A stretch of 44,302 nucleotides of DNA from UHGV virus genome UHGV-0470999, one strand, 5' to 3'. This DNA comes from a virus. Below are positions 5 through 30,315 of the stretch, in pieces; within the stretch, counting starts at the first letter, position 1, and each line of letters opens with the position of its first letter. A model generated the notes under the pieces. That model saw only the letters and a program-made list of their open reading frames with translations. It was not told the DNA's origin and made no database searches. The position numbers and the translations under genes are program-made.

Positions 5-466
5 GTGATGCCGGTGGACAAGGAGGTGCTGATACAGTATTGCGAGATGAAAGAGGAGATAAAGGACATAAGACGGCGGATTCAGAAGCTGGATAAGTTT
101 CTTTCGGAGCCGCATCAGGTATCGGATACCGTTAAGGGGACAAGGCGGGACGGAACGATAGGAAGCATCAAGGTGACGGGATACCCGGTGCCGGAGCATT
201 ACCGGAAGCAGCGGCTGAGGGAGCGGTATAGGCAGCTTCTGGAACGTAAGGAGGCAGAGCTGCTGGAGCTGACCTGCCAGGTGGAGGAATATATCCAGAG
301 CATACCGAAGAGTGAGGTGCGGATTATGTTCCGTCTGTATTACATAGACGGCCTGCCCTGGTGGAAGGTGGCGCAGGCCATGAACCGGATGTTCCCGAAG
401 CGGCGGGTTAAGTTTACGGAGGATAGCTGCCGGGTAAGAAATAACAGATTTTTTGAGGAAATTTAA
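5..466 (+). CDS. putative phage late-gene transcriptional activator (ArpU/RinA-like, sigma-70 region-4-like HTH); possibly 5'-truncated by window edge or continuous with ORF at 44235 if circular
   Basis: Position immediately upstream of terminase genes; C-terminal helix-turn-helix-like segment RIMFRLYYIDGLPWWKVAQAMN; ~150 aa size typical of ArpU family. Confidence 0.45.
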   Translation: MMPVDKEVLIQYCEMKEEIKDIRRRIQKLDKFLSEPHQVSDTVKGTRRDGTIGSIKVTGYPVPEHYRKQRLRERYRQLLERKEAELLELTCQVEEYIQSIPKSEVRIMFRLYYIDGLPWWKVAQAMNRMFPKRRVKFTEDSCRVRNNRFFEEI

Positions 467-884
467 AAATGTTCGGCCATGTTCGCTTGAAAAGTGTTAA
501 TATGCTATCATGCGGAAGCCAGAGGGCGGAAGCACCCTCCCCAAAATGTGGAATGTTAAACCGCCGGGGAATGGCAGTCTACTTCAAGGTGATGTTACTG
601 CCTTATCAAAAGCGAGGACATTGTGCGCCACGGAAACCTTCACGCAATCGGTATTAACGGCGGGTATGGATTGCATCCCCCACTGGCTGTCAGGCATCAC
701 ACCCTGGCTGCCGACTGTATCTGGTTTTTATCTCCCCAAGACATTTTCCAGATACCTTAGGGCATCCTAGAAATAGGGTGTCCTTTTCTTATTCGCCCCT
801 TGACTTGAGCAAACATGCGTTCTGTATTTTGGTTACGAAGAGAAGAAACGGGCATGTTTTTGTATGATTTATAAAATTGGGAGG

Positions 885-930
885 GGGATATTTGTATATT
901 CTTCCCATTCGTCATGTGATATAATTAAGA
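885..930 (+). promoter_or_regulatory. sigma-A type promoter with extended -10 (TGATATAAT at 917-925) driving the NACHT moron
   Basis: TGnTATAAT motif 30 nt upstream of ATG 955, AT-rich leader, GGGGAG RBS at 943-948. Confidence 0.4.
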
Positions 931-954
931 AAATGTCGAAATGGGGAGAAACAT

Positions 955-2916
955 ATGTGGGAATTATTTTTTATGCAGATAAGTAAATTAGGGCTTAGTG
1001 AGGCTATTAAAAAATTGGTAGGTGTTGTTATTGACGAGAAGGTAAGACCGATATTAGAAACATCTAATATAAAGGAAGAGGATAGAAATAATATTGAACA
1101 ATGCCTAATGGAATATTTGGCTACAAGTCATAATAAGGCGATAACAATGAATACAATAGTTTTTAGAGGGTATCCAAAAAAGCTTTATGACCTTTATGTG
1201 CCTATTACACTTACAGCAAATATGTTTGGAAATCGGTCGCGAGAAGAATATGTTATGAATGAAAACTATGACACATTGTTAAAACGTTATAATAAAATAT
1301 TAATTGTAGATACAGCAGGGATGGGCAAGTCCACACTCGTTAAGTATTTAGCAGTTCAGTCAATAAACAATAATACAAGTATACCTATTATAGTTGAATT
1401 GCGTAAATTAGAAAAGCATGAAGATATATTAGATTATATTTTACGTCAATTTGACTCGATTGATAAGAAAATAACAAAAGAACATTTTATACCCATGTTA
1501 AAAAGGGGAGATTTTACAATATTTTTTGATGGCTATGATGAAGTTTCAGTAGAAAAAAGAGGTATAATTATTGATAATTTAAAAGATTTTATTTACAAAG
1601 CAAGTGATAATAAATTTGTACTTACGTCTCGGGAGGAATCTGATTTAAGTGCTCTTGGTGAGTTTATAAGGTTTTCTATAAAGCCTTTAAAGATTTCAGA
1701 GGCCTATGAATTAATAAAAAGATATGATGAGGAGGGTACAATATCGGAAAGTCTGATAAATCGTTTACAAGAAGATTCTCGGATGAAGGTGGTTAGGGAT
1801 TTTTTAAAGAATCCACTATTAGTATCACTCTTATATAAAACATATGAATATAAAGAAGATATAGCTTACAAAAAATTAAGTTTTTATGAGCAAGTCTACG
1901 AAGCGCTATTTTATGACCATGATAAAACAAAAGGAGGCGCATATGTCCATGATAAAAAAAGCGGTCTAGATGCTCATAGTTTTGAAAGGCTCCTTCGGCG
2001 AATTGCTTTTTTCTCTTTGCAGGAGAATAAAGTAGGGTATTCAAAGAATGAAATTTATGAATTTATAGATAAATCCATTAAGGGAATGTCGAGCTTAAAT
2101 TTAGTTACATCAGAAAGTGTATTAGATGATTTATTACATGCCGTACCTCTTATGCACAAAGATGGAAACGATATAAAATGGGTACATAAATCGTTTATGG
2201 AATATTTTGCAGCAAGTTTTATTTGTTATGATAGTGGTGAAATAGATAAACTTTTTCGTCATATGATGAAATCAAAAGGTGTGGAGAGATACACAAATGT
2301 TTTGGGATTTTGTTATGAGATAAATCCTGATGTATTCCGAAGGGTAATCATACTACCTTTTTTAAAAAAGTATATTGATTTTTATGATAAAGTTTTTTGG
2401 GATATAAAGCAAAGAAATTGGGACAAAAAGCTTATATGTAAAATAGTTAGTTTAGAATTCTGTCATTCGTTCAGATTGGGGATTTATGATTCTGTTGAGG
2501 CCGCTACTGCCGCATTTAATGATAAACATTCAATACTTAATAAAATGTTTATGCCAGTAAAAGGTGTGAATATTAGAATGCTCACGCATGTAGGTAATAT
2601 TTTGATAGGACAAGGAGATAAGAATGAATGTTTTCTTTCCAATGTCTTATATGACAATGGCATAGATATTTTTTTGAGAGTCCCAACTAAAATTAGTCAT
2701 GATTTATATTTCGCATTAGAAGGGATGGAAAGAAAAATATATGTTTGGGACAATATTTTAAATCAGACAGAAGAAAATGTTAGCACAATTATACAATCTG
2801 TTCTTCCATGCATTACTGAAAAATATTTTATAGATTATGAAAAGTGTGTTCAATTAAAAGCCGAAATTGAAGACGAAATGATGATAGCTAAAAGCTTAAG
2901 TTTTGATTTGTTTTAA
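955..2916 (+). CDS. NACHT/STAND-family P-loop NTPase (candidate antiviral STAND, bNACHT/Avs-like), AT-rich moron
   Basis: Walker A LIVDTAGMGKSTLVKYL, Walker B hhhhDGYDEV (FTIFFDGYDEV), 653 aa; GC content far below flanking phage genes; own promoter. Confidence 0.6.
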   Translation: MWELFFMQISKLGLSEAIKKLVGVVIDEKVRPILETSNIKEEDRNNIEQCLMEYLATSHNKAITMNTIVFRGYPKKLYDLYVPITLTANMFGNRSREEYVMNENYDTLLKRYNKILIVDTAGMGKSTLVKYLAVQSINNNTSIPIIVELRKLEKHEDILDYILRQFDSIDKKITKEHFIPMLKRGDFTIFFDGYDEVSVEKRGIIIDNLKDFIYKASDNKFVLTSREESDLSALGEFIRFSIKPLKISEAYELIKRYDEEGTISESLINRLQEDSRMKVVRDFLKNPLLVSLLYKTYEYKEDIAYKKLSFYEQVYEALFYDHDKTKGGAYVHDKKSGLDAHSFERLLRRIAFFSLQENKVGYSKNEIYEFIDKSIKGMSSLNLVTSESVLDDLLHAVPLMHKDGNDIKWVHKSFMEYFAASFICYDSGEIDKLFRHMMKSKGVERYTNVLGFCYEINPDVFRRVIILPFLKKYIDFYDKVFWDIKQRNWDKKLICKIVSLEFCHSFRLGIYDSVEAATAAFNDKHSILNKMFMPVKGVNIRMLTHVGNILIGQGDKNECFLSNVLYDNGIDIFLRVPTKISHDLYFALEGMERKIYVWDNILNQTEENVSTIIQSVLPCITEKYFIDYEKCVQLKAEIEDEMMIAKSLSFDLF

Positions 2917-2988
2917 AAGAAATAAACGTTTTTAGCAACCAATTACTACTAAACATAATCTAAAACAATACGAAACGAGGTGAGCCCG

Positions 2989-3540
2989 ATGGCATTAACG
3001 CCCAAACAGAAAATATTTGTAGATGAATACCTAATTGACCTTAATGCCACCAGGGCCTACAAGGTGGCGTATCCCAGTTGTAAGAAGGATGATGCAGCAG
3101 CAGTCAACGGAAGCAAGCTGCTAAGAAATACTAAGGTCGCAGAATACATACAGGAACGTATGAAGGAACGCTCAAAACGCACAGAAATTACTCAGGACCG
3201 CGTTCTGCAGGAACTGGAAAAACTGGTTCTGTTCGATATCAGGAAGTTGTTTGACAGTAATGGAAAACCAGTGGATATATCAATGCTTGATGATGACACG
3301 GCTGCCTGTATTGCAGGGCTGGAAGTGGTAGACTATTTCGAAGGAGCAGGAGAGGAAAGGGAGTTTGCGGGATATGTAAAAAAGTATAAGCTTACGGATA
3401 AGTTAAGGGCGATAGAACTGATGGGCCGCCACTTTGGTATGTTTAAGGACAAGCTGGAGCTGTCCGGTGAGATAAGGACCAACAATCCTTACGCCAGCCT
3501 GACAACAGAAGAATTAAAGAAGCTGATACATGGTGGATAG
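2989..3540 (+). CDS. terS: terminase small subunit (P27/Terminase_2-like)
   Basis: N-terminal LTPKQKIFVDEYLIDLNATRAYKVAY motif typical of TerS; GAGGTGA RBS before ATG 2989; directly upstream of TerL. Confidence 0.75.
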   Translation: MALTPKQKIFVDEYLIDLNATRAYKVAYPSCKKDDAAAVNGSKLLRNTKVAEYIQERMKERSKRTEITQDRVLQELEKLVLFDIRKLFDSNGKPVDISMLDDDTAACIAGLEVVDYFEGAGEEREFAGYVKKYKLTDKLRAIELMGRHFGMFKDKLELSGEIRTNNPYASLTTEELKKLIHGG

Positions 3541-3554
3541 GGAGGGGGTGATGA

Positions 3555-3755
3555 TTGGTAGTGGTTGATGGAAAGCTGATACGAACAGGAGCGATGTTAG
3601 AGCTTGCGCGGCGCGAGTTCTTTTTTTATTGTCATTTGAAAGCACCAGATTTTTACAAAGAGAATCGGAAGTATCTGGTGGACCTTTGTAAAGGATTTCA
3701 GGAGTTTATAGAGGGCGAGGATGAAGTATTGGTAGTAAATGAACCACCCCGATAG
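3555..3755 (+). CDS. terL: terminase large subunit, N-terminal fragment (ends ...VVNEPPR, stop caused by frameshift)
   Basis: Continues in another frame as ..PIDCHGKSRTAG.. (Walker A) if one C is added to the C4 run at 3747-3750. Confidence 0.55.
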   Translation: MVVVDGKLIRTGAMLELARREFFFYCHLKAPDFYKENRKYLVDLCKGFQEFIEGEDEVLVVNEPPR

Positions 3756-3799
3756 ACTGCCACGGAAAGTCAAGAACAGCGGGCCTTCTGGTTGAGTGG

Positions 3800-4966
3800 G
3801 TGCTGGGGAATGACCAGTCGCAGAAAATCATGACTGGCTCATATAACGAGACACTTTCCACCATGTTCTCCAAGAACGTCCGTAATGACATCCAGGAAGA
3901 GAAGGCAGATGAAAACCGCATTGTGTTCTCTGATATCTTCCCTGGGGTATCCATCAAGCGCGGTGACGGAGCCATGAACCTATGGAGCCTGGAGGGCGGA
4001 TACAGCAATTACCTTGCTACATCCCCAACCGGCACGGCCACCGGATTTGGCGCCACACTGCTCATCATCGATGACCTCATCAAGAACGCCGAGGAGGCCA
4101 ACAACGAGCTGACCAAGGAGAAGCACTGGACCTGGTTCACGGATACGATGCTGTCCCGTCTGGAAGAGGGTGGTAAAATCATCATTATCATGACCCGGTG
4201 GGCCAGCGATGACCTGGCAGGACGTGCGCTGGAGCATTTCAAGGAGGCAGGGGCAAAGGTGCGGCATATCTCCATGAAAGCACTCCTGAATCCGGACACA
4301 CATGAGATGCTCTGCCCGGAGGTTCTGTCCTATAAATCCTACCAGGCCAAGATACGGGCCATGGGCGCCGACATTGCATCAGCCAACTATCAGCAGGAGC
4401 CGATTGACCTGAAGGGCAGGCTGTATACCAGCTTTAAGACCTATTCCGGGGAGCTGCCTCAGTTTAAGGAAATCCGCAACTATACAGATACAGCGGATAC
4501 CGGCGAGGACTATTTGTGCAGCATCAACTACGGCGTTACCTTTGCCAATGAGGCTTATGTGCTGGATGTGCTGTATACTAAAGAACCCATGGAGGTTACG
4601 GAGCCGGCCACGGCCAGGATGCTACAGGAAGGTTCTGTAAACGTATCAGACATTGAATCCAATAATGGCGGTCGCAGCTTTGCCCGGAGTGTGGAACGGA
4701 TTCTGCGGGAAGTTCTGGGAAGCAACCACACGGTGATACGGTGGTTCACCCAGACAAAGAATAAGCAGGCCCGGATTTATTCCCATTCCGCCTGGGTAAT
4801 GCAGCATGTGTATTTTCCAGAAGATTGGAAGAACCGCTGGCCGGAGTACCATAAGGCGATGATAAAGTACCAACGAGAAGGGCAGAACAAACATGATGAC
4901 GCTCCGGATACGACCACGGGCATTGCGGAAAAGATTGGCGCCGGCAGCGCATTCAGTTTTGATTGA
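3800..4966 (+). CDS. terL: terminase large subunit, main portion (ATPase Walker B LLIIDD plus C-terminal nuclease domain); true reading frame open from 3743
   Basis: Motifs LIIDDLI, IIIMTRW, C-terminal nuclease-like region with conserved D residues; position between TerS and portal. Confidence 0.8.
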   Translation: MLGNDQSQKIMTGSYNETLSTMFSKNVRNDIQEEKADENRIVFSDIFPGVSIKRGDGAMNLWSLEGGYSNYLATSPTGTATGFGATLLIIDDLIKNAEEANNELTKEKHWTWFTDTMLSRLEEGGKIIIIMTRWASDDLAGRALEHFKEAGAKVRHISMKALLNPDTHEMLCPEVLSYKSYQAKIRAMGADIASANYQQEPIDLKGRLYTSFKTYSGELPQFKEIRNYTDTADTGEDYLCSINYGVTFANEAYVLDVLYTKEPMEVTEPATARMLQEGSVNVSDIESNNGGRSFARSVERILREVLGSNHTVIRWFTQTKNKQARIYSHSAWVMQHVYFPEDWKNRWPEYHKAMIKYQREGQNKHDDAPDTTTGIAEKIGAGSAFSFD

Positions 4967-6507
4967 GAAAGAAGGTGAGGTCTATGATAGATTACGGCAG
5001 TGAGACCAGGCGTATCAATGCCATAGTAAACGCTGGCGCCAGGACCAGAATGACGGACATCCGGTTCCTGGAGAAGGAAATACAGAAGTGGAAGCAGTCA
5101 CCGGTCCGCCGCGTTATGATTCTGGCTGAACGGTATTACCAAGGGGACCACGATATTCTTCATACCCCCAGGACGGTTATCAATGAGAAGGGGGAGCTGG
5201 AGCCGGCGAAGAACCTTCCGGACAACCGGATTGTAGATAATCAGTACCAGAAGGCCGTTGACCAGAAAAAGAACTACCTGCTTTCAAAGCCCTTTTCGCT
5301 TACCGCGGATAATGACCGATATGCGAAAGCCTTGAAATACATTCTGGACAAGAAGTTCATGCGTTCCTTGAAGCGGGTGGCAGGGGATTCCATTAATGGA
5401 GGGATTGGGTATTTGTACCCTTACTATAATGAGCAGGGACAGCTGCTGTTTAAGCGGTTCAACAATTACGAGATTATCCCCTTTTGGGCAGACGAGGAGC
5501 ATACCGAGCTGGACTGTTTTGGCAGGCTGTATCAGATTGATGGATACGAAGGCGAGACGGAAAAGACCTATGAATTTTTCGAACTGTATTCCCGTAGTGG
5601 TATTGACCGTTACCAGCTGGATGGCAGTCACCTGATTCCGGACGTCATGCACCTCTCCGGCGCCCATTACCTGGTGGAACAGCACGATCCGGACGGCCAG
5701 CACAAGGAGGTACCCTATAACTGGGAGAGGGTGCCGCTTATACCATTCAAACGCAACGCCCATGAGATACCACTGATTAAGTGCTGCAAGAGCCTGCAGG
5801 ACGGCATTAACCTGATGGTCAGCACGTTTGAGAATAACATGTGCGAGGATGCCCGGAACACGATTCTGATTATTGTCAATTATGATGGGACTAACCTGGG
5901 TGAGTTTAGGAAGAATCTAAGCCAGTATGGAGCAGTGAAGGTACGCAATGATGGAAGCGGCGCCGGAGGTGACGTGCGTGCTCTGACGGTGGAGGTCAAC
6001 GCAGAGAATTACAGAGCCATTCTGGAGATATTTAAGACAGCCCTGATTGAGAACTGCAAAACCTATGACGCCAAGGATGCCCGGCTGACCGGGGACGCCA
6101 ATCAGATGCACATACAGACCATCTACCAGGACATTGAGCTGGATGCCCAGGATATGGAGACAGAGTATCAGGCGGCCTTTGAGGACCTGCTGTGGTTTGT
6201 GGACCAGCATCTGGCCAACACTGGACAGGGTGACTTTGACCTGGACGAGGTTGATATCACGTTTAACCGTAATATCCTGGTAAATGAAACGGAGCTGATT
6301 GATAACTGTGCCAAGTCTGTGGGGCTGCTTCCCTCAAGATTGATTCTGCAAAAACACCCGTGGGTGGATGATGTGGACGAAGCCATGCAGATGATGGAGG
6401 AAGAGGAAGAAAAGAAGATGCAGCGGATGGACCCATACCAGCAGGCATTTGGGCAGGAGGTGCCGGAAGGCGGTGATATAGATGGCGAAGGACAGAGAAC
6501 AGAATAG
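4963..6507 (+). CDS. portal protein, SPP1 gp6-like (likely ATG start at 4984)
   Basis: 514 aa, sequence flow typical of Phage_prot_Gp6 portal; follows TerL. Confidence 0.8.
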   Translation: MRKKVRSMIDYGSETRRINAIVNAGARTRMTDIRFLEKEIQKWKQSPVRRVMILAERYYQGDHDILHTPRTVINEKGELEPAKNLPDNRIVDNQYQKAVDQKKNYLLSKPFSLTADNDRYAKALKYILDKKFMRSLKRVAGDSINGGIGYLYPYYNEQGQLLFKRFNNYEIIPFWADEEHTELDCFGRLYQIDGYEGETEKTYEFFELYSRSGIDRYQLDGSHLIPDVMHLSGAHYLVEQHDPDGQHKEVPYNWERVPLIPFKRNAHEIPLIKCCKSLQDGINLMVSTFENNMCEDARNTILIIVNYDGTNLGEFRKNLSQYGAVKVRNDGSGAGGDVRALTVEVNAENYRAILEIFKTALIENCKTYDAKDARLTGDANQMHIQTIYQDIELDAQDMETEYQAAFEDLLWFVDQHLANTGQGDFDLDEVDITFNRNILVNETELIDNCAKSVGLLPSRLILQKHPWVDDVDEAMQMMEEEEEKKMQRMDPYQQAFGQEVPEGGDIDGEGQRTE

Positions 6508-8122
6508 AGAGTATTGGCAGCGGCGCATGGCCGTTCTGGAGGATGACCAGTACCGGCGCAGTGCCACTTACTACAAGGATGTCCAGCGCCAGTACATAAG
6601 AGCTACCAACAGCATCCAGATGGACATAAGCCGGTGGTACCAGCGCCTGGCAGACAACAACGACATCAGTTATGCGGGCGCCAAGAGGCTGCTTAAGAAG
6701 GACGAGCTGGAGGAGTTCAGGTGGACGGTCGAGGATTACATAAAGGCTGGCCAGGAAAATGCCGTTGACCAGCGCTGGATGAAGGAACTGGAGAATGCAT
6801 CCGCCCGGCATCACATCTCATACCTGGAGGCCATGAAGCTCCAGATGCAGCAGCATGCGGAACTGCTGTTAACGGAGTTTGATGGAGGCATGATGGATTA
6901 TCTGCATGAAGCCTATAGGGAACAGTATTACCGGACCGCTTTTGAGGTGTCAAAGGGAACCGGGGTGGGTACCAACCTTGCACGGCTGGATGACCAGAGG
7001 ATGGATGCCATCATCAGGCATCCCTGGGCACATGATGGGGAAAACTTCTCAAGCCGTATCTGGACCAATAAGGATAAGCTTGTCAGGAACCTGCATACCG
7101 AACTGACCCAGAACATCATCCGTGGTGAGTCCCCTCAGAAGGCCATAGACAGCTTGTCAAGGACCATGGAGGTCAGCCGGGGCCAGGCCGGGCGTCTCAT
7201 CATGACCGAGTCAGCAGCCATCTCTTCGGCGGCCCAGAAGGACTGCCTGAAGGGGCTGGGGGTGGAGAAGTATGAAATCCTGGCCACGTTGGATGGTCAG
7301 ACTTCTGAGATATGCAGGGATATGGACGGCAAGGTCTTTGACATGAAGGATTATGAGGTCGGGACTACGGCGCCGCCCTTCCATCCGAACTGCAGGTCCA
7401 CTACGGTGCCGTATTTTGACGACGAATTTACAGAGGGTGAGATGAGAGCCGCCAGAGACAGTAGTGGGAAAACATATTATGTTCCCTCTGACATGAAGTA
7501 TAGGGAATGGGAAAAGCGGTATGTCCCCAAGTCTGAGAAAGCAGGGGCATCTGGGATGAAGAGGACTTCTGGACAGATGGAAAAGCGGTGCATACCACTG
7601 AGGACGGAGGTAGAAAAGTACTCTCCACGGAAAAGCAGATGGAGTGGGAAAGTCAAGGCAGATAATGAACGATGTGAACAGGAATGCTGTTTGGGCATAA
7701 AGGAGTGGAACTGTGACATTATTGTAAGGGATGATGTACCGGATGGGATAATGCTCCATGAGTTACTGCATTCCTGCTCTGCCAGCTACCATAGTCCAGC
7801 GGATTATATCGCACATCAGGGTATAGAGGAAGCAAGTGTGGAACTATTGACCCAGGAGATTGCGGAAAAGATGGGAATAGCCCATATCCCTGGCTATACG
7901 GACACGGTTGGAATCCTACGGAACCTAAACAATGGATTAGGCCTATATGAGTCCGATATGGAATTTGCGAAGGAACTTTTCAAGCACCCGATGACAGAAC
8001 GGTTCAGCTGGTTGCAGGATAAGGTGAATGGGAGTATAATCCATAATGAGAAGGTATCCGTTGATGAGGCTGCAGCAATCATGGATTATGTTGGAAAATT
8101 GGGGGGTGGGTCTGTTGGATGA
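6482..8122 (+). CDS. head morphogenesis protein, MuF/SPP1 gp7 family, with ~215-aa C-terminal extension carrying an HExxH motif (candidate MuF-fused toxin/metallopeptidase domain)
   Basis: MuF signature ...ILATLDGQTSEICRDMDGKVFD...PPFHPNCRSTTVP; C-terminal LHELLHSCS (HExxH) and lower GC in last 650 nt. Confidence 0.75.
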   Translation: MAKDREQNREYWQRRMAVLEDDQYRRSATYYKDVQRQYIRATNSIQMDISRWYQRLADNNDISYAGAKRLLKKDELEEFRWTVEDYIKAGQENAVDQRWMKELENASARHHISYLEAMKLQMQQHAELLLTEFDGGMMDYLHEAYREQYYRTAFEVSKGTGVGTNLARLDDQRMDAIIRHPWAHDGENFSSRIWTNKDKLVRNLHTELTQNIIRGESPQKAIDSLSRTMEVSRGQAGRLIMTESAAISSAAQKDCLKGLGVEKYEILATLDGQTSEICRDMDGKVFDMKDYEVGTTAPPFHPNCRSTTVPYFDDEFTEGEMRAARDSSGKTYYVPSDMKYREWEKRYVPKSEKAGASGMKRTSGQMEKRCIPLRTEVEKYSPRKSRWSGKVKADNERCEQECCLGIKEWNCDIIVRDDVPDGIMLHELLHSCSASYHSPADYIAHQGIEEASVELLTQEIAEKMGIAHIPGYTDTVGILRNLNNGLGLYESDMEFAKELFKHPMTERFSWLQDKVNGSIIHNEKVSVDEAAAIMDYVGKLGGGSVG

Positions 8123-27379: not shown

Positions 27380-27420
27380 AAAGCGGCGGGGAATGCCCCG
27401 CCTGTCATCATAATTTTTCA
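27380..27420. terminator. bidirectional rho-independent terminator (GGCGGGG aatg CCCCGCC) between endolysin and convergent Spo0A_C gene
   Basis: 7-bp GC stem with T-runs on both strands. Confidence 0.55.
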
Positions 27421-27752
27421 TATTGATTTGATATATAATGCGATACGGCATCAATAAATTCACCATTTCGTGGTTTCTGAGTAAGTTCATAGCCAAAGAT
27501 TGAGTTTAATAAATTTCTATCCCCACGGTTCCATATTTTATGTATAACAGTTCGCATATCTCGTTCCACACATCCTGTTGTTGTATGGTATTTGGTGGCA
27601 ATTTCCACATACAAGCCTTTGGAGATATAAGTAATTAAATCTGGATTGTGAATATTGAGTGTAACGCCATAGGCGATATAGCTGAAACCTATGTAAGAAT
27701 TGTTCACACCCAATTTGCGTAGTATTTGAGCAGCTTTTCTTTCGTAAGTCAT
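27408..27752 (-). CDS. stand-alone Spo0A C-terminal DNA-binding domain protein (Spo0A_C homolog without receiver domain)
   Basis: Aligns with B. subtilis Spo0A C-domain: LGV..GY.Y, LYVEIATKYHTTTGCVERDMRTVIHKIWNRGD, IFGYELTQKPRNGEFIDAV versus [32 protein letters not shown]...[29 protein letters not shown] RBS. Confidence 0.7.
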   Translation of the reverse strand: MTYERKAAQILRKLGVNNSYIGFSYIAYGVTLNIHNPDLITYISKGLYVEIATKYHTTTGCVERDMRTVIHKIWNRGDRNLLNSIFGYELTQKPRNGEFIDAVSHYISNQYEKL

Positions 27753-27866
27753 AGTAGTCCTCCTTAAGTTATCAATACATATATTAAACGCATATAGGCG
27801 GCAAATGTTAACAAAAATTAGACGACAAAATACGACTTTTTATGGTGATAAATAGTGTATAATAGA

Positions 27867-27899
27867 ATAAAAAAAATACGGCGATTGCATTGCCGTACT
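27867..27899 (-). terminator. rho-independent terminator for XRE gene (GTACGGC aatgcaat CGCCGTA + T8)
   Basis: Read on minus strand directly after stop of 27898-28122 gene. Confidence 0.5.
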
Positions 27900-28122
27900 A
27901 CTTGCTTGGAAAATGTGACTTGATATTAGAACATCCGCATATATAGTCCATGCTGACATCATAAAGCCGCGCAAGTATTATGATGGAGTCAAGCGGGATT
28001 CTGGTCTTACCCAGTTCATAATCCGCATATGTCCTCTGGCCTACGTGCAGGATACTGGCAATGTATGTCTGTGTATACTCGTGGTCCTCTCTTAATGCTC
28101 TAATTCTTTTCGTATAATGCAT
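27898..28122 (-). CDS. XRE-family helix-turn-helix transcriptional regulator (74 aa)
   Basis: RIRALREDHEYTQTYIASILHVGQRTYADYELGKTRIPLDSIIILARLY is a classic XRE HTH; GGAGGTGGAGG RBS 6 nt before ATG 28122. Confidence 0.7.
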   Translation of the reverse strand: MHYTKRIRALREDHEYTQTYIASILHVGQRTYADYELGKTRIPLDSIIILARLYDVSMDYICGCSNIKSHFPSK

Positions 28123-28138
28123 GATATACCTCCACCTC

Positions 28139-28217
28139 CATTCCACATATTGTACATTAGAGCTATATACTCTATTGACTTTTAGAGTTATAAACTCTAA
28201 TATTAATATGTGGAATG
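28139..28217. promoter_or_regulatory. divergent control region: 13-bp inverted repeat CATTCCACATATT/AATATGTGGAATG flanking two 17-bp operators TAGAG-N7-CTCTA and a sigma-A promoter (TTGACT 28175-80, 17-nt spacer, TAATAT 28198-203) for the + strand small ORF
   Basis: All motifs read directly; operator 2 lies in the -35/-10 spacer. Confidence 0.5.
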
Positions 28218-28233
28218 AAGGAGGGGGTTAATC

Positions 28234-28392
28234 ATGAGACAAAGGAAAAAATTTAGTGACGAACAATTACTTCAAGAATTCTACCTTGCCCAAAGGGTAC
28301 CAGATAAGGACGTGCCAAAGCCAAAACCAGATGAATTTAAACGAATTTGGGAGAGGATACAAAGCGGAAAAGAAAAGAAGTCGGCTGAATAA
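28234..28392 (+). CDS. small hypothetical protein (52 aa), divergent from XRE regulator
   Basis: MRQRKKFSDEQLLQEFYLAQRVPDKDVPKPKPDEFKRIWERIQSGKEKKSAE; GGAGGGGG RBS. Confidence 0.35.
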   Translation: MRQRKKFSDEQLLQEFYLAQRVPDKDVPKPKPDEFKRIWERIQSGKEKKSAE

Positions 28393-28393
28393 A

Positions 28394-28436
28394 TAAAAAA
28401 AGGTGACGACCCTCAATTGGCTAGTCACCTTTTAAC
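28394..28436. terminator. bidirectional terminator (A-run GGTGAC ... GTCACC T-run)
   Basis: 6-bp stem flanked by A7 and T4 between convergent genes. Confidence 0.45.
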
Positions 28437-28453
28437 TTTACCTTGTTTGAACT

Positions 28454-28708
28454 TTATATGTCCAACATGAGCCTAGAAGCGATTCGGAAACCTTGCACAA
28501 AGCCATCCTCCCGAGCGCTTGTTGCAATAATGTCTTGTTGTTCAATGTAATTTTTAAAGTCTTTCAGAAATTCTGGCGGTAATCTTTGACACAGTTCATC
28601 TTTTAGCAATTCCGCTTGAGTCATTGCGTTGACATATTCGGCAGAGTCTATGTCTGCAATCTCATCATCTTGTAACATGTCAAACCTTCGGTAAATTTCT
28701 CTTATCAT
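28454..28708 (-). CDS. hypothetical acidic protein (84 aa)
   Basis: ORF with AAAGGAGA RBS; adjacent to candidate attP. Confidence 0.35.
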   Translation of the reverse strand: MIREIYRRFDMLQDDEIADIDSAEYVNAMTQAELLKDELCQRLPPEFLKDFKNYIEQQDIIATSAREDGFVQGFRIASRLMLDI

Positions 28709-28784
28709 TTGTAAATCTCCTTTTTAATATATTATATATAAGGATGGATATTTCCTATTATTAGATAGATTCATATTAGACGGT

Positions 28785-28975
28785 TATTAGCAACAAATTT
28801 CTCTAAAGTGACGTATTTGCGTTATTTTAGGTATGCACTCTGCATTGCAATTATCCCATTTTTTACAATTTATTACAACAAATAAACACAAATACGTTGT
28901 TTTTGTGGTGATATAGGTAAGCGTAAAGCGCTGAAAAAAAATCTATTAGCAACAAATTAGCAACGTATTAGCAAC
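28785..28975. repeat. candidate attP region: direct repeats of TTAGCAAC (28787, 28946, 28957, 28968; last three phased at 11 bp) immediately 3' of the integrase gene
   Basis: Repeats read directly; 15-mer ATTAGCAACAAATT occurs twice; AT-rich ORF-free 270-bp region next to int. Confidence 0.45.
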
Positions 28976-28982
28976 AAGGTAG

Positions 28983-30164
28983 CTAAATACTATAGCCTAT
29001 CTTATTAACTTCTCGCAGTAATTCATCCGGGGTTCGATGGGTATACACGTTTTCTGTCAAGTCCTGTATTGCATGTCCCACTATGAGTTTTAGACAATAT
29101 TCATCCAGTCCAGCTTGCTTGGCACGGGTGACAAATGTATGGCGGGTGTCATGAGGTGTGTGTTTAGTTTTCATATCTGCCATGATGGCCCTAAAACGAT
29201 GGGCATACATGTTATAAGTCACGTCGTCGTCCGCTATCTTAAACAGTTTACCAGTATTAATCCTTTGAGCAATCAAATTATATATTTTGTCATGGATGGG
29301 GATAATTCTATCCCGGCCAGCTTCTGTTTTGCTCCCACCTACCATATAGTGTTCCCCCAGATTTATATTGCCGGACTCCAGAGCGCAGATCTCACCGGGC
29401 CGTAGTCCCGTGTATAATCCCACCAATACCATATCTGCACATTCCATGTCCAGCATTGTCCAGAGTTGTTGCACTTCCGTGTCCGGGAATACGATACGTG
29501 TTATACTGGCATCGGGTCTGGATACTACATCAGTCAGTTCAGCATAGTTCCGTTCGACAATCTCATATTTTAATCCCCACTTAAATAGATTAATTAACAG
29601 GCTTCGGGCATCCCTGCGAACGATGGCAGATTTTGAAGGATCAGAAATTAGTTCGTCAAGGTCAGCAGTTTTAAGGTCCCGGAGCATTTTATTGTGTATA
29701 GGGGCGCAGAATTTATAGGCATCAGCCCATGCTCTTTGCCGGCCTGCGGATAGTTTTTTGTCTTCAAAGTATTTTTTAGACCATTCGTCATATGCTTCGG
29801 ATAACGTGGTGTCATATTTCTTTTCGTGTGGAGTTTTGTTGTAATTTATTAGAGCCTGATATGCCGCAACATATGTTTTGAAACTTGCTACTGGCTCGAT
29901 GGGTTTTTGAATCGGATGTCCTAGAGGGGTACGTCCTACAGTCTTCCGTACATAATAAGGCTTACGCCTGTTTGAACCTTGATACGATATACTTCCAAAT
30001 CCGTTAGGCAGACGCATCTCGGTTGATGGCTTTGGCCGCTTGGTCTTGGTAGATGAAGATTTGTGGGGAACCTGCTGGATTGAGATTGGGAAACCGCAGT
30101 GAGGGCAGGCCTGAGCCCTATCACTTACTTTACCCTCACATTCTGGACATTGTATGAGTGCCAT
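28983..30164 (-). CDS. int: tyrosine-type site-specific integrase with N-terminal Zn-ribbon (start at 30164 preferred; ORF opens at 30221)
   Basis: Catalytic signature GLRPGE ... HDTRHTF ... GH ... VYTHR (R, HxxR, Y); N-terminal CPECEG...CPHCG; AGGAAGGA RBS 8 nt before ATG 30164. Confidence 0.85.
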   Translation of the reverse strand: MALIQCPECEGKVSDRAQACPHCGFPISIQQVPHKSSSTKTKRPKPSTEMRLPNGFGSISYQGSNRRKPYYVRKTVGRTPLGHPIQKPIEPVASFKTYVAAYQALINYNKTPHEKKYDTTLSEAYDEWSKKYFEDKKLSAGRQRAWADAYKFCAPIHNKMLRDLKTADLDELISDPSKSAIVRRDARSLLINLFKWGLKYEIVERNYAELTDVVSRPDASITRIVFPDTEVQQLWTMLDMECADMVLVGLYTGLRPGEICALESGNINLGEHYMVGGSKTEAGRDRIIPIHDKIYNLIAQRINTGKLFKIADDDVTYNMYAHRFRAIMADMKTKHTPHDTRHTFVTRAKQAGLDEYCLKLIVGHAIQDLTENVYTHRTPDELLREVNKIGYSI

Positions 30165-30181
30165 TAATACCATCCTTCCTG

Positions 30182-30195
30182 TTGCGATATCGCAA
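30182..30195. promoter_or_regulatory. perfect 14-bp palindrome TTGCGATATCGCAA in integrase leader (candidate operator)
   Basis: Read directly, immediately upstream of int RBS on minus strand. Confidence 0.4.
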
Positions 30196-30315
30196 CTATT
30201 TTTTGGTACAAAAAAATACACCCATTGACCGGATGTATTTAAGGATGATATAATATGGTTGTTGAGACCGATATTATCATCCGGGACATACCGGGCAATA
30301 GTATCATCAAAAGCT

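What the first reader, a model, noticed from the sequence alone, without database searches (positions are those of the whole stretch)
885..2916. Phage-borne NACHT/STAND NTPase moron between late activator and terminase
A 653-aa protein with clear Walker A (GMGKST) and NACHT-type Walker B (hhhhDGYDEV) sits in a sharply AT-rich island (very different composition from the ~50% GC phage backbone). It has its own extended -10 promoter and lies in the late-regulator/terS gap, a common moron or defence hotspot. Bacterial NACHT/STAND NTPases (Avs, bNACHT) are antiviral sensors. A prophage-carried copy would protect the lysogen from other phages. The short N-terminal region (~120 aa) and ~350-aa C-terminal region have no effector or repeat domains that I can recognise, so the architecture may be uncharacterised.
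Basis: partly seen in the sequence, partly recalled or inferred. Interest (0 to 1): 0.7.

Follow-up and report, generated by a model that had tools for sequence, protein, structure and literature searches.

The report
Phage-carried NACHT immune sensor gene
A gut-bacterium phage carries, in a swap-in slot just before its DNA-packaging genes, a 653-aa relative of animal NOD-like receptors; it belongs to a bacterial family already described, some of whose members are shown to kill infected cells to stop other phages, so it is a solid but not new kind of find.

Summary
ORF 955-2916 (+) encodes a 653-aa protein with intact Walker A and B motifs. It lies in a 30% GC island within a 50-55% GC phage backbone, between an ArpU-like regulator and terS.

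The architecture is not uncharacterised:
- a roughly 40-aa N-terminal helical extension;
- a NACHT module (about residues 41-457);
- a hypervariable 195-aa C-terminal domain of the Pfam SNaCT5 family.

This is the layout of the 'short C-terminal' bacterial NACHT proteins (bNACHT01 and bNACHT11). In those, the SNaCT domain binds phage proteins, the protein oligomerises, and the N-terminal extension kills the cell.

The moron idea is strongly supported. In 75 related phages the same slot is either empty or holds about 20 different AT-rich cargos.

Defence activity is inferred, not shown. PADLOC gives no hit, and I could not link the protein directly to any tested bNACHT.

Verdict: a new member of a known kind. 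The hotspot may be more interesting than the gene.

The parts
5..466 (+). Phage transcriptional regulator (ArpU/DUF1492-like presumed late activator). It forms the left flank of the hotspot.
   Evidence: phrog_36 E 7.6e-17 and DUF1492 E 0.008. There are 75 viral and 32 genomic relatives at 49-96% identity.
467..546 (+). Backbone element directly after the regulator's stop codon, conserved whatever the cargo. It may be a late-promoter or regulatory site; its function is unknown.
   Evidence: blastn 83-96% identity over window 440-546 in nearly all related loci.
717..755 (+). Leader hairpin 1 (GTATCTGG ... CCAGATAC).
   Evidence: Conserved in alignment A3 and predicted in the RNA fold of 700-960 (z = -2.9).
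759..794 (+). Terminator-like hairpin (11 bp) followed by a T-run. It would insulate the cargo from upstream transcription.
   Evidence: Found by the scan, conserved in A3 and present in the fold.
800..828 (+). Leader promoter 1: TTGACT-17 nt-TGTATT. The consensus in relatives is TTGACT-17-TATACT, with the palindrome GAACATATGTTC in the spacer. The -10 is degenerate in this window.
   Evidence: Alignment A3 and the sequence itself.
915..925 (+). Extended -10 promoter element TGTGATATAAT (promoter 2). It lies 30 nt upstream of the start codon.
   Evidence: Sequence. Conserved in 7 of 9 aligned leaders that carry different cargo.
943..949 (+). Ribosome-binding site GGGGAGA.
   Evidence: Sequence. 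The GGGGAG motif is conserved in A3.
955..2916 (+). bNACHT gene, 653 aa. The cassette holds this single gene.
955..1074 (+). N-terminal extension (residues 1-40), presumed effector. It is one long helix, MWELFFMQISKLG..., ending in the conserved K31-P32.
   Evidence: AF2 helix 2-36; pLDDT 47 for residues 1-10, rising to about 90. Family consensus. Weak profile match to the N-terminus of the proteobacterial family (hhalign probability 53%).
1075..2325 (+). NACHT module (residues 41-457): NBD, helical domain, winged helix and helical domain 2.
1318..1335 (+). Walker A, GMGKST (residues 122-127).
   Evidence: Invariant G122, M123, G124, K125 and T127.
1516..1545 (+). Walker B, TIFFDGYDEV (residues 188-197).
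   Evidence: Invariant D192, G193, D195 and E196.
2179..2211 (+). Winged-helix histidine motif WVHKSFMEYFA (residues 409-419).
   Evidence: Invariant W409, H411, K412, F414 and E416. HMMER aligns it to the KFFHKSFQEY motif of NLRC4.
2326..2916 (+). C-terminal SNaCT5-type domain (residues 458-653), the presumed sensor. It is hypervariable and ends in the conserved tail ...SFDLF.
   Evidence: Pfam SNaCT5 E 0.006, covering profile positions 3-196 of 196. 14 of 44 homologues hit SNaCT5, best E 1e-23. hhalign probability 98% to the E. coli SNaCT5 domain. Column entropy is 2.5-3.2 bits against 0.5-1.8 in the core. Mean identity to homologues is 22% against 53% in the core.
2917..2965 (+). AT-rich 3' UTR of the cassette. 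No terminator was found. The right junction of the island lies at about 2966.
   Evidence: One search finds no terminator here. Similarity to related phages resumes only at 2966-3000.
2989..3540 (+). terS (small terminase). It forms the right flank of the hotspot.
   Evidence: Terminase_2 E 1.6e-38 and phrog_51. The start at 2989 follows the gene call in the identical contig L002.

Best explanation
The gene encodes a single-protein, NLR-like abortive-infection sensor of the SNaCT-bearing bacterial NACHT class. It is carried as a moron in a cargo hotspot of a Lachnospiraceae temperate phage.

Proposed mechanism, by analogy with bNACHT01 and bNACHT11:
1. In the lysogen the gene is transcribed from the promoters of its own leader. 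The upstream terminator-like hairpin insulates it from other transcription.
2. The protein rests as an ADP-bound monomer, held closed through the winged-helix histidine (H411).
3. The hypervariable C-terminal SNaCT5 domain binds one or more proteins of a superinfecting phage.
4. Nucleotide exchange at the Walker A/B site allows NACHT-NACHT oligomerisation into a ring. The conserved C-terminal tail (..FDL) may dock into a neighbouring protomer.
5. The clustered N-terminal helices of about 40 aa damage the membrane and kill or arrest the cell before the invader completes its cycle.

Shown here: the domain identity, the motifs, the fold, the hypervariable sensor, the hotspot and the conserved promoter region.

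Inferred: expression in lysogeny, the trigger, oligomerisation, the killing mode and the phage-resistance phenotype.
For: **NACHT identity**
- Pfam score above the cut-off; 44/44 homologues hit NACHT.
- Foldseek: NLRC4, E 9e-15.
- The Walker A, Walker B, sensor-1 (S225-R226) and winged-helix His motifs are invariant.

**SNaCT architecture**
- SNaCT5 matches the query over the full profile length (E 0.006) and alignable homologues at up to 1e-23.
- Profile-profile comparison with the enterobacterial SNaCT5 family: core E 4e-100, C-terminal domain probability 98%.

**Signature of an arms race**
- C-terminal identity is 22% against 53% in the core.
- Entropy is 2.5-3.2 bits against 0.5-1.8.
- The C-terminal domain alone finds only 2 relatives among 1.84 billion representatives.
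- The same pattern defines SNaCT in Kibby et al..

**Mechanistic precedent**
- In bNACHT11 the SNaCT domain binds several phage proteins, the protein forms a heptamer, the C-terminal tail docks into a neighbour, and the 45-aa N-terminal extension kills the cell.
- N-terminal hydrophobic helices of the MEPIS type are membrane-targeting killers.

**Defence-type context**
- The island is AT-rich. The NACHT gene has lower GC than its flanks in 41 of 42 viral loci.
- The same slot is empty or holds about 20 other AT-rich cargos, including PDC-M30, SLATT and DUF4062 proteins.
- Homologues lie directly upstream of terS in unrelated Firmicutes phages, including CDMH1.
- Homologues also lie in the P4-satellite integrase-psu defence hotspot of E. 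coli.
- The block 467-3100 is 99.5-100% identical in a second phage whose terminase genes are only 67-90% identical, which points to recent exchange.
Against: - No experiment exists on this protein or, as far as I could find, on any Firmicutes or SNaCT5-type member.
- PADLOC v2 gives no hit for it or its relatives, apart from weak Avs2 P-loop matches.
- The accessions of the tested proteins bNACHT01, 02, 11, 12 and 23 were not among the relatives I could retrieve.
- bNACHT11 (9ORF) is not in the PDB copy, so membership of the tested clade is not shown directly.
- The N-terminus (MWELF...) lacks the MDPIT motif whose D2 and P3 are essential in bNACHT11. It is also atypical for its own family, which starts MNIPV or MDLKE.
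- No terminator follows the gene, so expression may be coupled to late transcription rather than to lysogeny.
- SNaCT5 is below the Pfam cut-off for the query alone (17.2 bits against 27).
Confidence: 0.7

Rival explanations
1. The protein serves the phage's own life cycle. It would be a STAND-type signalling or regulatory switch, for example timing late gene expression, lysis or the lysis-lysogeny decision. This is what the CDMH1 annotation 'putative signalling/NTPase protein' implies.
For: - It lies on the late-gene strand between the late regulator and terS, and no terminator follows it.
- The CDMH1 homologue is annotated as 'putative signalling/NTPase protein'.
Against: - It has no DNA-binding or other output domain.
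- The gene is absent from 73 of 75 closely related phages. Their slot is empty or holds unrelated cargo, so the gene is dispensable for the phage.
- The AT-rich foreign composition and hypervariable C-terminus are typical of conflict genes.
- NLR-type NACHT proteins score far above MalT in the structure search.
Confidence: 0.08
2. It is a weapon used during the phage's lytic cycle rather than a defence of the lysogen. It would act against co-infecting phages or satellites, be expressed with the late genes, and abort the cell only if a competitor is detected.
For: - Read-through from the regulator and late promoter region is possible, and there is no downstream terminator.
- Relatives are carried by P4-type satellites, which themselves compete with helper phages.
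Against: - A conserved terminator-like hairpin and two promoter-like elements lie immediately upstream, which suggests independent expression.
- Mechanistically this is the same sensor. The difference is only in the timing of expression.
Confidence: 0.12
3. It is a selfish addiction or toxic module, or a decaying remnant, with no sensing function.
For: - The N-terminus is atypical for the family.
- The neighbouring terL carries an 8-nt frameshifting insertion, so the element may be degenerating.
Against: - The ORF is intact and all catalytic motifs are preserved.
- The protein is 100% identical in a second contig.
- The predicted full-length fold is confident, with pLDDT 85.
Confidence: 0.05

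Closest known systems
bNACHT11 / bNACHT01 (SNaCT-bearing bacterial NACHT proteins, 'clade 14' of Kibby et al.; bNACHT11 structure PDB 9ORF)
   Same: - Single protein of about 640-650 aa.
- Short N-terminal extension with no recognisable effector domain. bNACHT11: 45 aa. Here: about 40 aa.
- Central NACHT module. bNACHT11: residues 43-464. Here: about 41-457.
- Short non-repeat C-terminal SNaCT domain. bNACHT11: residues 466-628. Here: 458-642.
- The SNaCT domain evolves much faster than the NACHT module.
- A conserved extreme C-terminal tail.
- The best structural neighbours are NLRC4 and NAIP.
   Different: - The N-terminal motif is MWELF (family: MNIPV, MDLKE, MLLETI), not MDPIT.
- The host is a Gram-positive Lachnospiraceae and the gene is phage-borne.
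- The Pfam SNaCT subfamily of the tested proteins is unknown to me.
- Activity is untested.
Enterobacterial NACHT-SNaCT5 proteins in the P4-satellite hotspot (e.g. E. coli WP_001183325.1, cluster P0121)
   Same: - Homologous over the whole length: 33-35% identity by tblastn, core hhalign E 4e-100, C-terminal domain probability 98%.
- Same size (652 aa) and same Pfam pair, NACHT + SNaCT5.
- AT-rich relative to flanks.
- Carried by a mobile viral element in a known defence hotspot between the integrase and psu.
   Different: - N-termini are MQPVT, MLETIT or MITIE, closer to the MEPIS/MDPIT type.
- The C-terminal tail is ...SNGINQLLDGF rather than ...FDL.
- The element type and insertion site differ.
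- I know of no test of these proteins either.
Clostridium phage CDMH1 gp84 ('putative signalling/NTPase protein')
   Same: - 41% identical over residues 13-504.
- It is the last gene of the linear genome record, following a 'putative regulatory protein'. If the packaging genes open that record, which I did not check, this is the same regulator-to-terminase position.
- It belongs to PHROG 18297.
   Different: - The C-terminal domain is too diverged for BLAST.
- It is 691 aa, with a longer N-terminus.
Avs (AVAST) antiviral STAND NTPases
   Same: A STAND NTPase with a C-terminal sensor and an N-terminal effector. Avs proteins bind phage proteins directly and then oligomerise.
   Different: - It belongs to a different STAND clade (NACHT).
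- It has no TPR-like sensor and no enzymatic effector.
- PADLOC Avs models do not match it.
Prophage and satellite defence hotspots (P2 and P4 hotspots; cargo downstream of the late regulator Q in lambdoid phages)
   Same: A fixed slot between conserved phage genes is filled with interchangeable, AT-rich, mostly single- or two-gene cargo. Some phages have the slot empty.
   Different: - The slot lies between an ArpU-like regulator and terS in Lachnospiraceae phages.
- The cargos share a conserved leader of about 240 nt (hairpins plus promoters) that is absent from empty sites.
- I did not find this slot described in the papers I searched.

Membership tests
NACHT domain (Pfam PF05729; NACHT clade of STAND NTPases) | Profile score at or above the Pfam gathering cut-off | tested here: met
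   27.5 bits against a cut-off of 26.7, residues 119-257. 44/44 full-length homologues hit NACHT, best E 1.2e-10.
NACHT domain (Pfam PF05729; NACHT clade of STAND NTPases) | Walker A GxxxxGK[ST] and Walker B hhhhDG[hY]DE with a second acidic pair | tested here: met
   GMGKST at 122-127 and IFFDGYDEV at 189-197. The key residues are invariant in 77 sequences.
NACHT domain (Pfam PF05729; NACHT clade of STAND NTPases) | NBD-HD1-WHD-HD2 fold, closest to NLR NACHT modules rather than NB-ARC or AAA+; conserved winged-helix histidine | tested here: met
SNaCT-bearing bNACHT proteins (bNACHT01/11-like, Kibby et al. clade 14) | Short, non-repeat C-terminal domain recognised as a SNaCT family (query alone) | tested here: inconclusive
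   SNaCT5 (PF22711) scores 17.2 bits, E 0.006, below the cut-off of 27. The match nevertheless covers profile positions 3-196 of 196 at residues 458-642.
SNaCT-bearing bNACHT proteins (bNACHT01/11-like, Kibby et al. clade 14) | The same C-terminal domain, tested through the family (transitive and profile-profile) | tested here: met
   14 of 44 homologues that align over the full length hit SNaCT5, best E 1e-23. hhalign of the C-terminal profile against the enterobacterial SNaCT5 domains gives probability 98.2%, E 6.6e-14, over 180 columns.
SNaCT-bearing bNACHT proteins (bNACHT01/11-like, Kibby et al. clade 14) | C-terminal domain diversifies much faster than the NACHT module | tested here: met
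   Entropy is 2.5-3.2 bits against 0.5-1.8. Identity is 22% against 53%. The second homologue group has a homologous C-terminal domain at only 19% identity.
SNaCT-bearing bNACHT proteins (bNACHT01/11-like, Kibby et al. clade 14) | Conserved N-terminal 'MDPIT' (MEPIS-like) motif on a short extension | tested here: not met
   The query starts MWELFF. Its family starts mostly MNIP[VIA], MDLKE or MLLETI. These have a similar character (polar or acidic residue, then hydrophobic helix) but are not the motif.
SNaCT-bearing bNACHT proteins (bNACHT01/11-like, Kibby et al. clade 14) | NACHT module falls inside clade 14 in a phylogeny, or shows direct similarity to bNACHT01/02/11/12/23 | not tested
   The sequences of the tested proteins were not retrievable. 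Their accessions were absent from the clusters I read, and 9ORF is absent from the PDB copy.
SNaCT-bearing bNACHT proteins (bNACHT01/11-like, Kibby et al. clade 14) | Confers phage resistance by abortive infection; dependent on Walker A; oligomerises on binding a phage protein | not testable with these tools
   Needs experiments.
Avs / other catalogued defence systems (PADLOC-DB v2.0.0) | Match to a PADLOC model | tested here: not met
   0 families at E <= 1 for the query. 0 for three Firmicutes homologues. Only weak Avs2 P-loop matches for the enterobacterial relatives.
Phage moron in a variable hotspot | Same flanks in related phages with the slot empty or holding different cargo; deviant base composition; own expression signals | tested here: met
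   75 related loci have slots that are empty or hold about 20 cargo types at GC 0.26-0.39, against a backbone of 0.46-0.55. The leader with terminator-like hairpin, promoters and RBS is conserved across cargos. Actual transcription was not tested.

The most novel reading that the evidence does not exclude
The Lachnospiraceae-phage proteins form an untested branch of SNaCT-type bNACHT sensors. This branch would have its own N-terminal killing helix (not MDPIT) working in a Gram-positive envelope, and a nearly unique sensor domain.

The regulator-terS slot they occupy would be a cassette-exchange system. A shared promoter-bearing leader of about 240 nt acts as the left homology arm for swapping some 20 mostly unannotated AT-rich cargos. 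Many of these are pairs of a soluble protein and a multi-pass membrane protein, and may be new defence systems.
Probability: 0.35. Interest if true: 0.6.

Novelty: new member of a known kind. Interest (0 to 1): 0.4.

Why it matters
- It extends the NLR-like, SNaCT-type bacterial immune sensors to temperate phages of abundant human-gut Lachnospiraceae (Enterocloster, Lacrimispora, Hungatella). All tested examples so far come from enterobacteria.
- It offers a natural comparison of how the same sensor scaffold kills a Gram-positive cell with a different N-terminal helix.
- The hotspot it sits in is a compact, well-delimited place to mine new defence genes of gut Firmicutes.
- A culturable strain with a related prophage exists: Lacrimispora xylanisolvens DSM 3808.

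Tried and rejected
- **PADLOC.** No hit on the query or on ten relatives.
- **Solved structures by sequence.** Single-sequence and profile searches gave only a weak NLRC4 winged-helix match. bNACHT11 (9ORF) is not in the copy.
- **Link to a tested bNACHT.** I searched with the E. coli relative and read ten clusters for accessions. None matched bNACHT01, 02, 11, 12 or 23.
- **NCBIfam.** There is a partial, far sub-threshold match to 'antiphage_EruA' (35.7 bits against 1000). No paper on EruA was found.
- **Non-coding RNA.** Rfam at gathering threshold on the whole window and at E <= 1 on 400-3100, plus a tRNA scan, found nothing. The 490-nt upstream gap is not a known RNA.
- **Known phage.** Near-identical DNA search in GenBank phages gave no match.
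- **Structure libraries.** afdb50 was unavailable. BFVD gave only one distant phage NLR-like protein.
- **Swapped C-terminus.** I considered that the homologues with 73% BLAST coverage carry a swapped, non-homologous C-terminal domain. Rejected: hhalign probability 100%, E 2e-43, at 19% identity.
- **Extended -10 across loci.** A loose motif is found upstream of 12/41 NACHT genes against 35/346 other genes. This is suggestive only.
- **Literature.** A full-text search for 'MEPIS' returned only unrelated stem-cell papers.
Full report
**1. The observation**

ORF 955..2916 (+) is real and encodes 653 aa. GGGGAGA lies 5 nt upstream of the ATG. GC is 0.26-0.32 over 900-3000 and 0.49-0.56 on either side.

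Upstream, 5..466 matches phrog_36 'transcriptional regulator' and weakly DUF1492. Downstream are terS (Terminase_2, E 2e-38) and terL. The 'extended -10' is TGTGATATAAT at 915-925. The generic promoter scan misses it because it has no -35.

**2. What the protein is**

*NACHT identity.* Pfam places it in NACHT just above the curated cut-off (27.5 against 26.7 bits). nSTAND3 and NB-ARC fall below their cut-offs. There is no KAP or replication-ATPase match. All 44 full-length homologues hit NACHT.

*Structure.* An AlphaFold2 model built on 77 homologues is confident (pLDDT 85, pTM 0.82).
- Foldseek top hits are NLRC4 (E 9e-15), NOD2 and NLRP3.
- These lie well above NB-ARC proteins (14.8 or below), MalT (14.4), Avs4 (10.7) and AAA+ or ORC/RFC proteins (10-12).

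*Invariant residues.* Across the family these include the Walker A and B residues, S225-R226, and W409/H411/K412 of a WVHKSFMEYFA motif. HMMER aligns that motif to the FFHKSFQEY winged-helix motif of NLRC4. The NACHT module therefore spans roughly residues 41-457. It is not only the 140 residues that Pfam marks.

**3. The two ends**

[quoted passage not shown] Homologues that align with the query to the last residue match SNaCT5 at up to 1e-23 (14 of 44). A profile of the family's C-terminal domain matches the SNaCT5 domain of an enterobacterial family with 98% probability (hhalign E 6.6e-14, 180 columns). The cores match at E 4e-100.

The domain is hypervariable:
- column entropy is 2.5-3.2 bits, against 0.5-1.8 in the core;
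- mean identity to homologues is 22%, against 53% in the core;
- a second group of homologues that BLAST aligns over only 73% of the query has the same domain at 19% identity (hhalign probability 100%);
- the domain alone finds just two relatives at E <= 1e-3 among 1.84 billion representatives.

Only a framework is conserved. It consists of the FRK..ILP helix at the start, a K.P.LF element, DDI.N.IN, L.Y.KC...EIE, and the extreme tail ..FDL.

*N-terminus.* The N-terminal 40 residues are predicted as one long helix, followed by the first conserved NACHT helix. The family consensus is M-x-I-x-x-ILKELAK-G....E..VK.FVETKIKPI. The commonest starts are MNIPV, MDLKE and MLLETI. The window protein starts MWELFF.

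**4. Comparison with what is known**

Kibby et al. defined SNaCT as the short, fast-evolving C-terminal domain of bNACHT01-like proteins ('clade 14'), which lack a recognisable effector.

The bNACHT11 study shows how one such protein works:
- the SNaCT domain (residues 466-628) binds several unrelated phage proteins by beta-augmentation;
- the protein forms a heptamer through NACHT and SNaCT contacts;
- a C-terminal tail docks into the neighbouring protomer;
- a 45-aa N-terminal extension with an essential MDPIT motif causes plasmolysis.

Ibarlosa et al. relate this N-terminal motif to the membrane-targeting first helix of HeLo, Hell and Bell domains.

The window protein has the same three-part layout and nearly the same domain boundaries. 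It shares the fast-evolving sensor and a conserved tail. It does not have MDPIT.

Its enterobacterial SNaCT5 relatives start MQPVT, MLETIT or MITIE, which resemble MEPIS/MDPIT. One example is E. coli WP_001183325.1, which lies between a P4-type integrase and psu. The N-terminal profiles of the two families match only weakly (probability 53%).

I could not obtain the sequences of the tested bNACHT proteins, and 9ORF is not in the PDB copy. Membership of the tested clade therefore rests on the Pfam SNaCT assignment and on the architecture, not on a direct comparison. PADLOC v2 recognises neither this protein nor its relatives.

**5. Context: a real hotspot**

*Hosts.* The phage has no close relative in GenBank phages. 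Relatives of its regulator occur in 75 IMG/VR contigs and in genomes of Enterocloster, Lacrimispora, Hungatella and other Lachnospiraceae.

*The slot.* I used my own simple ORF calls and clustering. In these contigs the interval between the regulator and terS/terL takes one of two forms:
- empty, at about 200-470 nt and GC about 0.5;
- filled with one to three genes at GC 0.26-0.39, of about 20 unrelated kinds.

A NACHT homologue (47.5% identity) occurs in only one other phage of the group. That phage is also a prophage of Lacrimispora xylanisolvens DSM 3808.

*Cargo identity.* A few cargos match defence-linked families: PDC-M30A/B, a SLATT protein and DUF4062. Most have no Pfam or PADLOC match.

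*The shared leader.* The 80 nt after the regulator's stop codon (467-546) are conserved in nearly all these phages. Window 717-959 is 72-85% identical in phages with different cargo and is absent from empty sites. It forms a leader with these parts:
- two hairpins, the second terminator-like (759-784 plus a T-run);
- a TTGACT-17-TATACT promoter with a GAACATATGTTC palindrome in the spacer (its -10 is degenerate in this window);
- the extended -10 TGTGATATAAT;
- a conserved 5' UTR and RBS.

On the right, similarity resumes only at about 2966, just before terS. The cassette is therefore about 955-2965.

*Recent exchange.* A second contig (L002) carries the identical protein. Its DNA is 99.5-100% identical over 467-3100 but only 67-90% identical in the adjacent terminase genes.

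*Wider pattern.* Outside this phage group, homologues also sit directly upstream of terS in about ten other Firmicutes viral contigs, and after the regulatory gene at the genome end of Clostridium phage CDMH1. In 41 of 42 viral loci the NACHT gene has lower GC than its flanks.

**6. Most likely mechanism and rivals**

The best-supported reading is an NLR-like abortive-infection sensor.
1. It is expressed from its own leader.
2. The SNaCT5 domain recognises protein(s) of an invading phage.
3. The NACHT module oligomerises in a nucleotide-dependent way.
4. The clustered N-terminal helices damage the membrane.

The domain identities, motifs, fold, sensor variability and hotspot are shown here. 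Everything from expression onward is inferred from bNACHT01/11.

Three rivals remain:
- a regulatory STAND protein serving the phage, which is unlikely because the gene is absent from nearly all sister phages and has no output domain;
- the same sensor used during lytic growth, which differs only in timing;
- a decaying or selfish module, which is unlikely because the ORF and motifs are intact and an identical copy exists elsewhere.

**7. Novelty**

The protein family and its architecture are already in Pfam and in the literature. Phage- and satellite-borne STAND sensors are known. This is a new, untested member from Gram-positive gut phages with a divergent N-terminus. The regulator-terS hotspot, with its shared leader and many unannotated cargos, is the less expected result and deserves its own follow-up.

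Noticed in passing
window 3597-4966 (about 3750-3760): terL is split into two frames (3597-3755 and 3761-4966). Relative to the intact 452-aa terL of the near-identical contig L002, the window has an 8-nt insertion (TAGACTGC) inside the Walker A codons (..EPPR|HGKS..), which creates a stop. This is either a packaging-defective element or an assembly error.
   Followed up: partly
window 467-546: An 80-nt non-coding element directly after the regulator's stop codon is 83-96% identical in almost all 75 related phages, whatever cargo follows. It may be a late promoter or regulator-binding site. No Rfam match.
   Followed up: partly
window 717-954; L051, L052, L061, L063, L065, L066, L073, L076, L080: A leader of about 240 nt is shared by unrelated cargo cassettes and absent from empty sites. 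It contains two hairpins, a TTGACT-17-TATACT promoter with the palindrome GAACATATGTTC, an extended -10, and a common 5' UTR and RBS. It looks like a common adapter and homology arm for cassette exchange.
   Followed up: partly
L050:8076-10082, L053, L083, L122; L063/L065/L104/L105; L073/L076/L109; L051; L080; L092; L094: The same hotspot holds many AT-rich cargos with no Pfam or PADLOC match. Examples are a 668-aa protein with C-terminal transmembrane helices and several pairs of a soluble protein of about 300 aa with a multi-pass membrane protein of about 200-250 aa. These are candidate unknown defence systems.
   Followed up: partly
L085:1734-3647; L060:1946-2713; L088:7793-8767: Three cargos in the same slot match defence-linked families: PADLOC candidate system PDC-M30A/B, a SLATT-domain protein (RT-associated SLATT model), and a DUF4062 protein.
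   Followed up: yes
L139 (Lacrimispora xylanisolvens DSM 3808, NZ_PTJA01000008.1) 5807-7714: A culturable type strain carries a related prophage with a 47.5%-identical NACHT gene in the same regulator-terS slot. It is a ready experimental system.
   Followed up: no
L021:5998-10067: One viral contig carries two NACHT paralogues (663 and 661 aa) in tandem.
   Followed up: no
window about 27400-30221: The lysis end of the late operon adjoins the integrase (28983-30221, minus strand). The window is therefore a circular permutation of the phage genome, with attP between them, rather than an integrated prophage with host flanks. There is no terminal overlap between the window ends.
   Followed up: partly
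L048 (E. coli LD27-1 chromosome) 4001-5959: The enterobacterial NACHT-SNaCT5 relative (WP_001183325.1; present in 25 of 5426 complete E. coli genomes) sits next to ssrA, between a P4-type integrase and psu/ogr-delta. This is the P4-satellite defence hotspot.
   Followed up: yes
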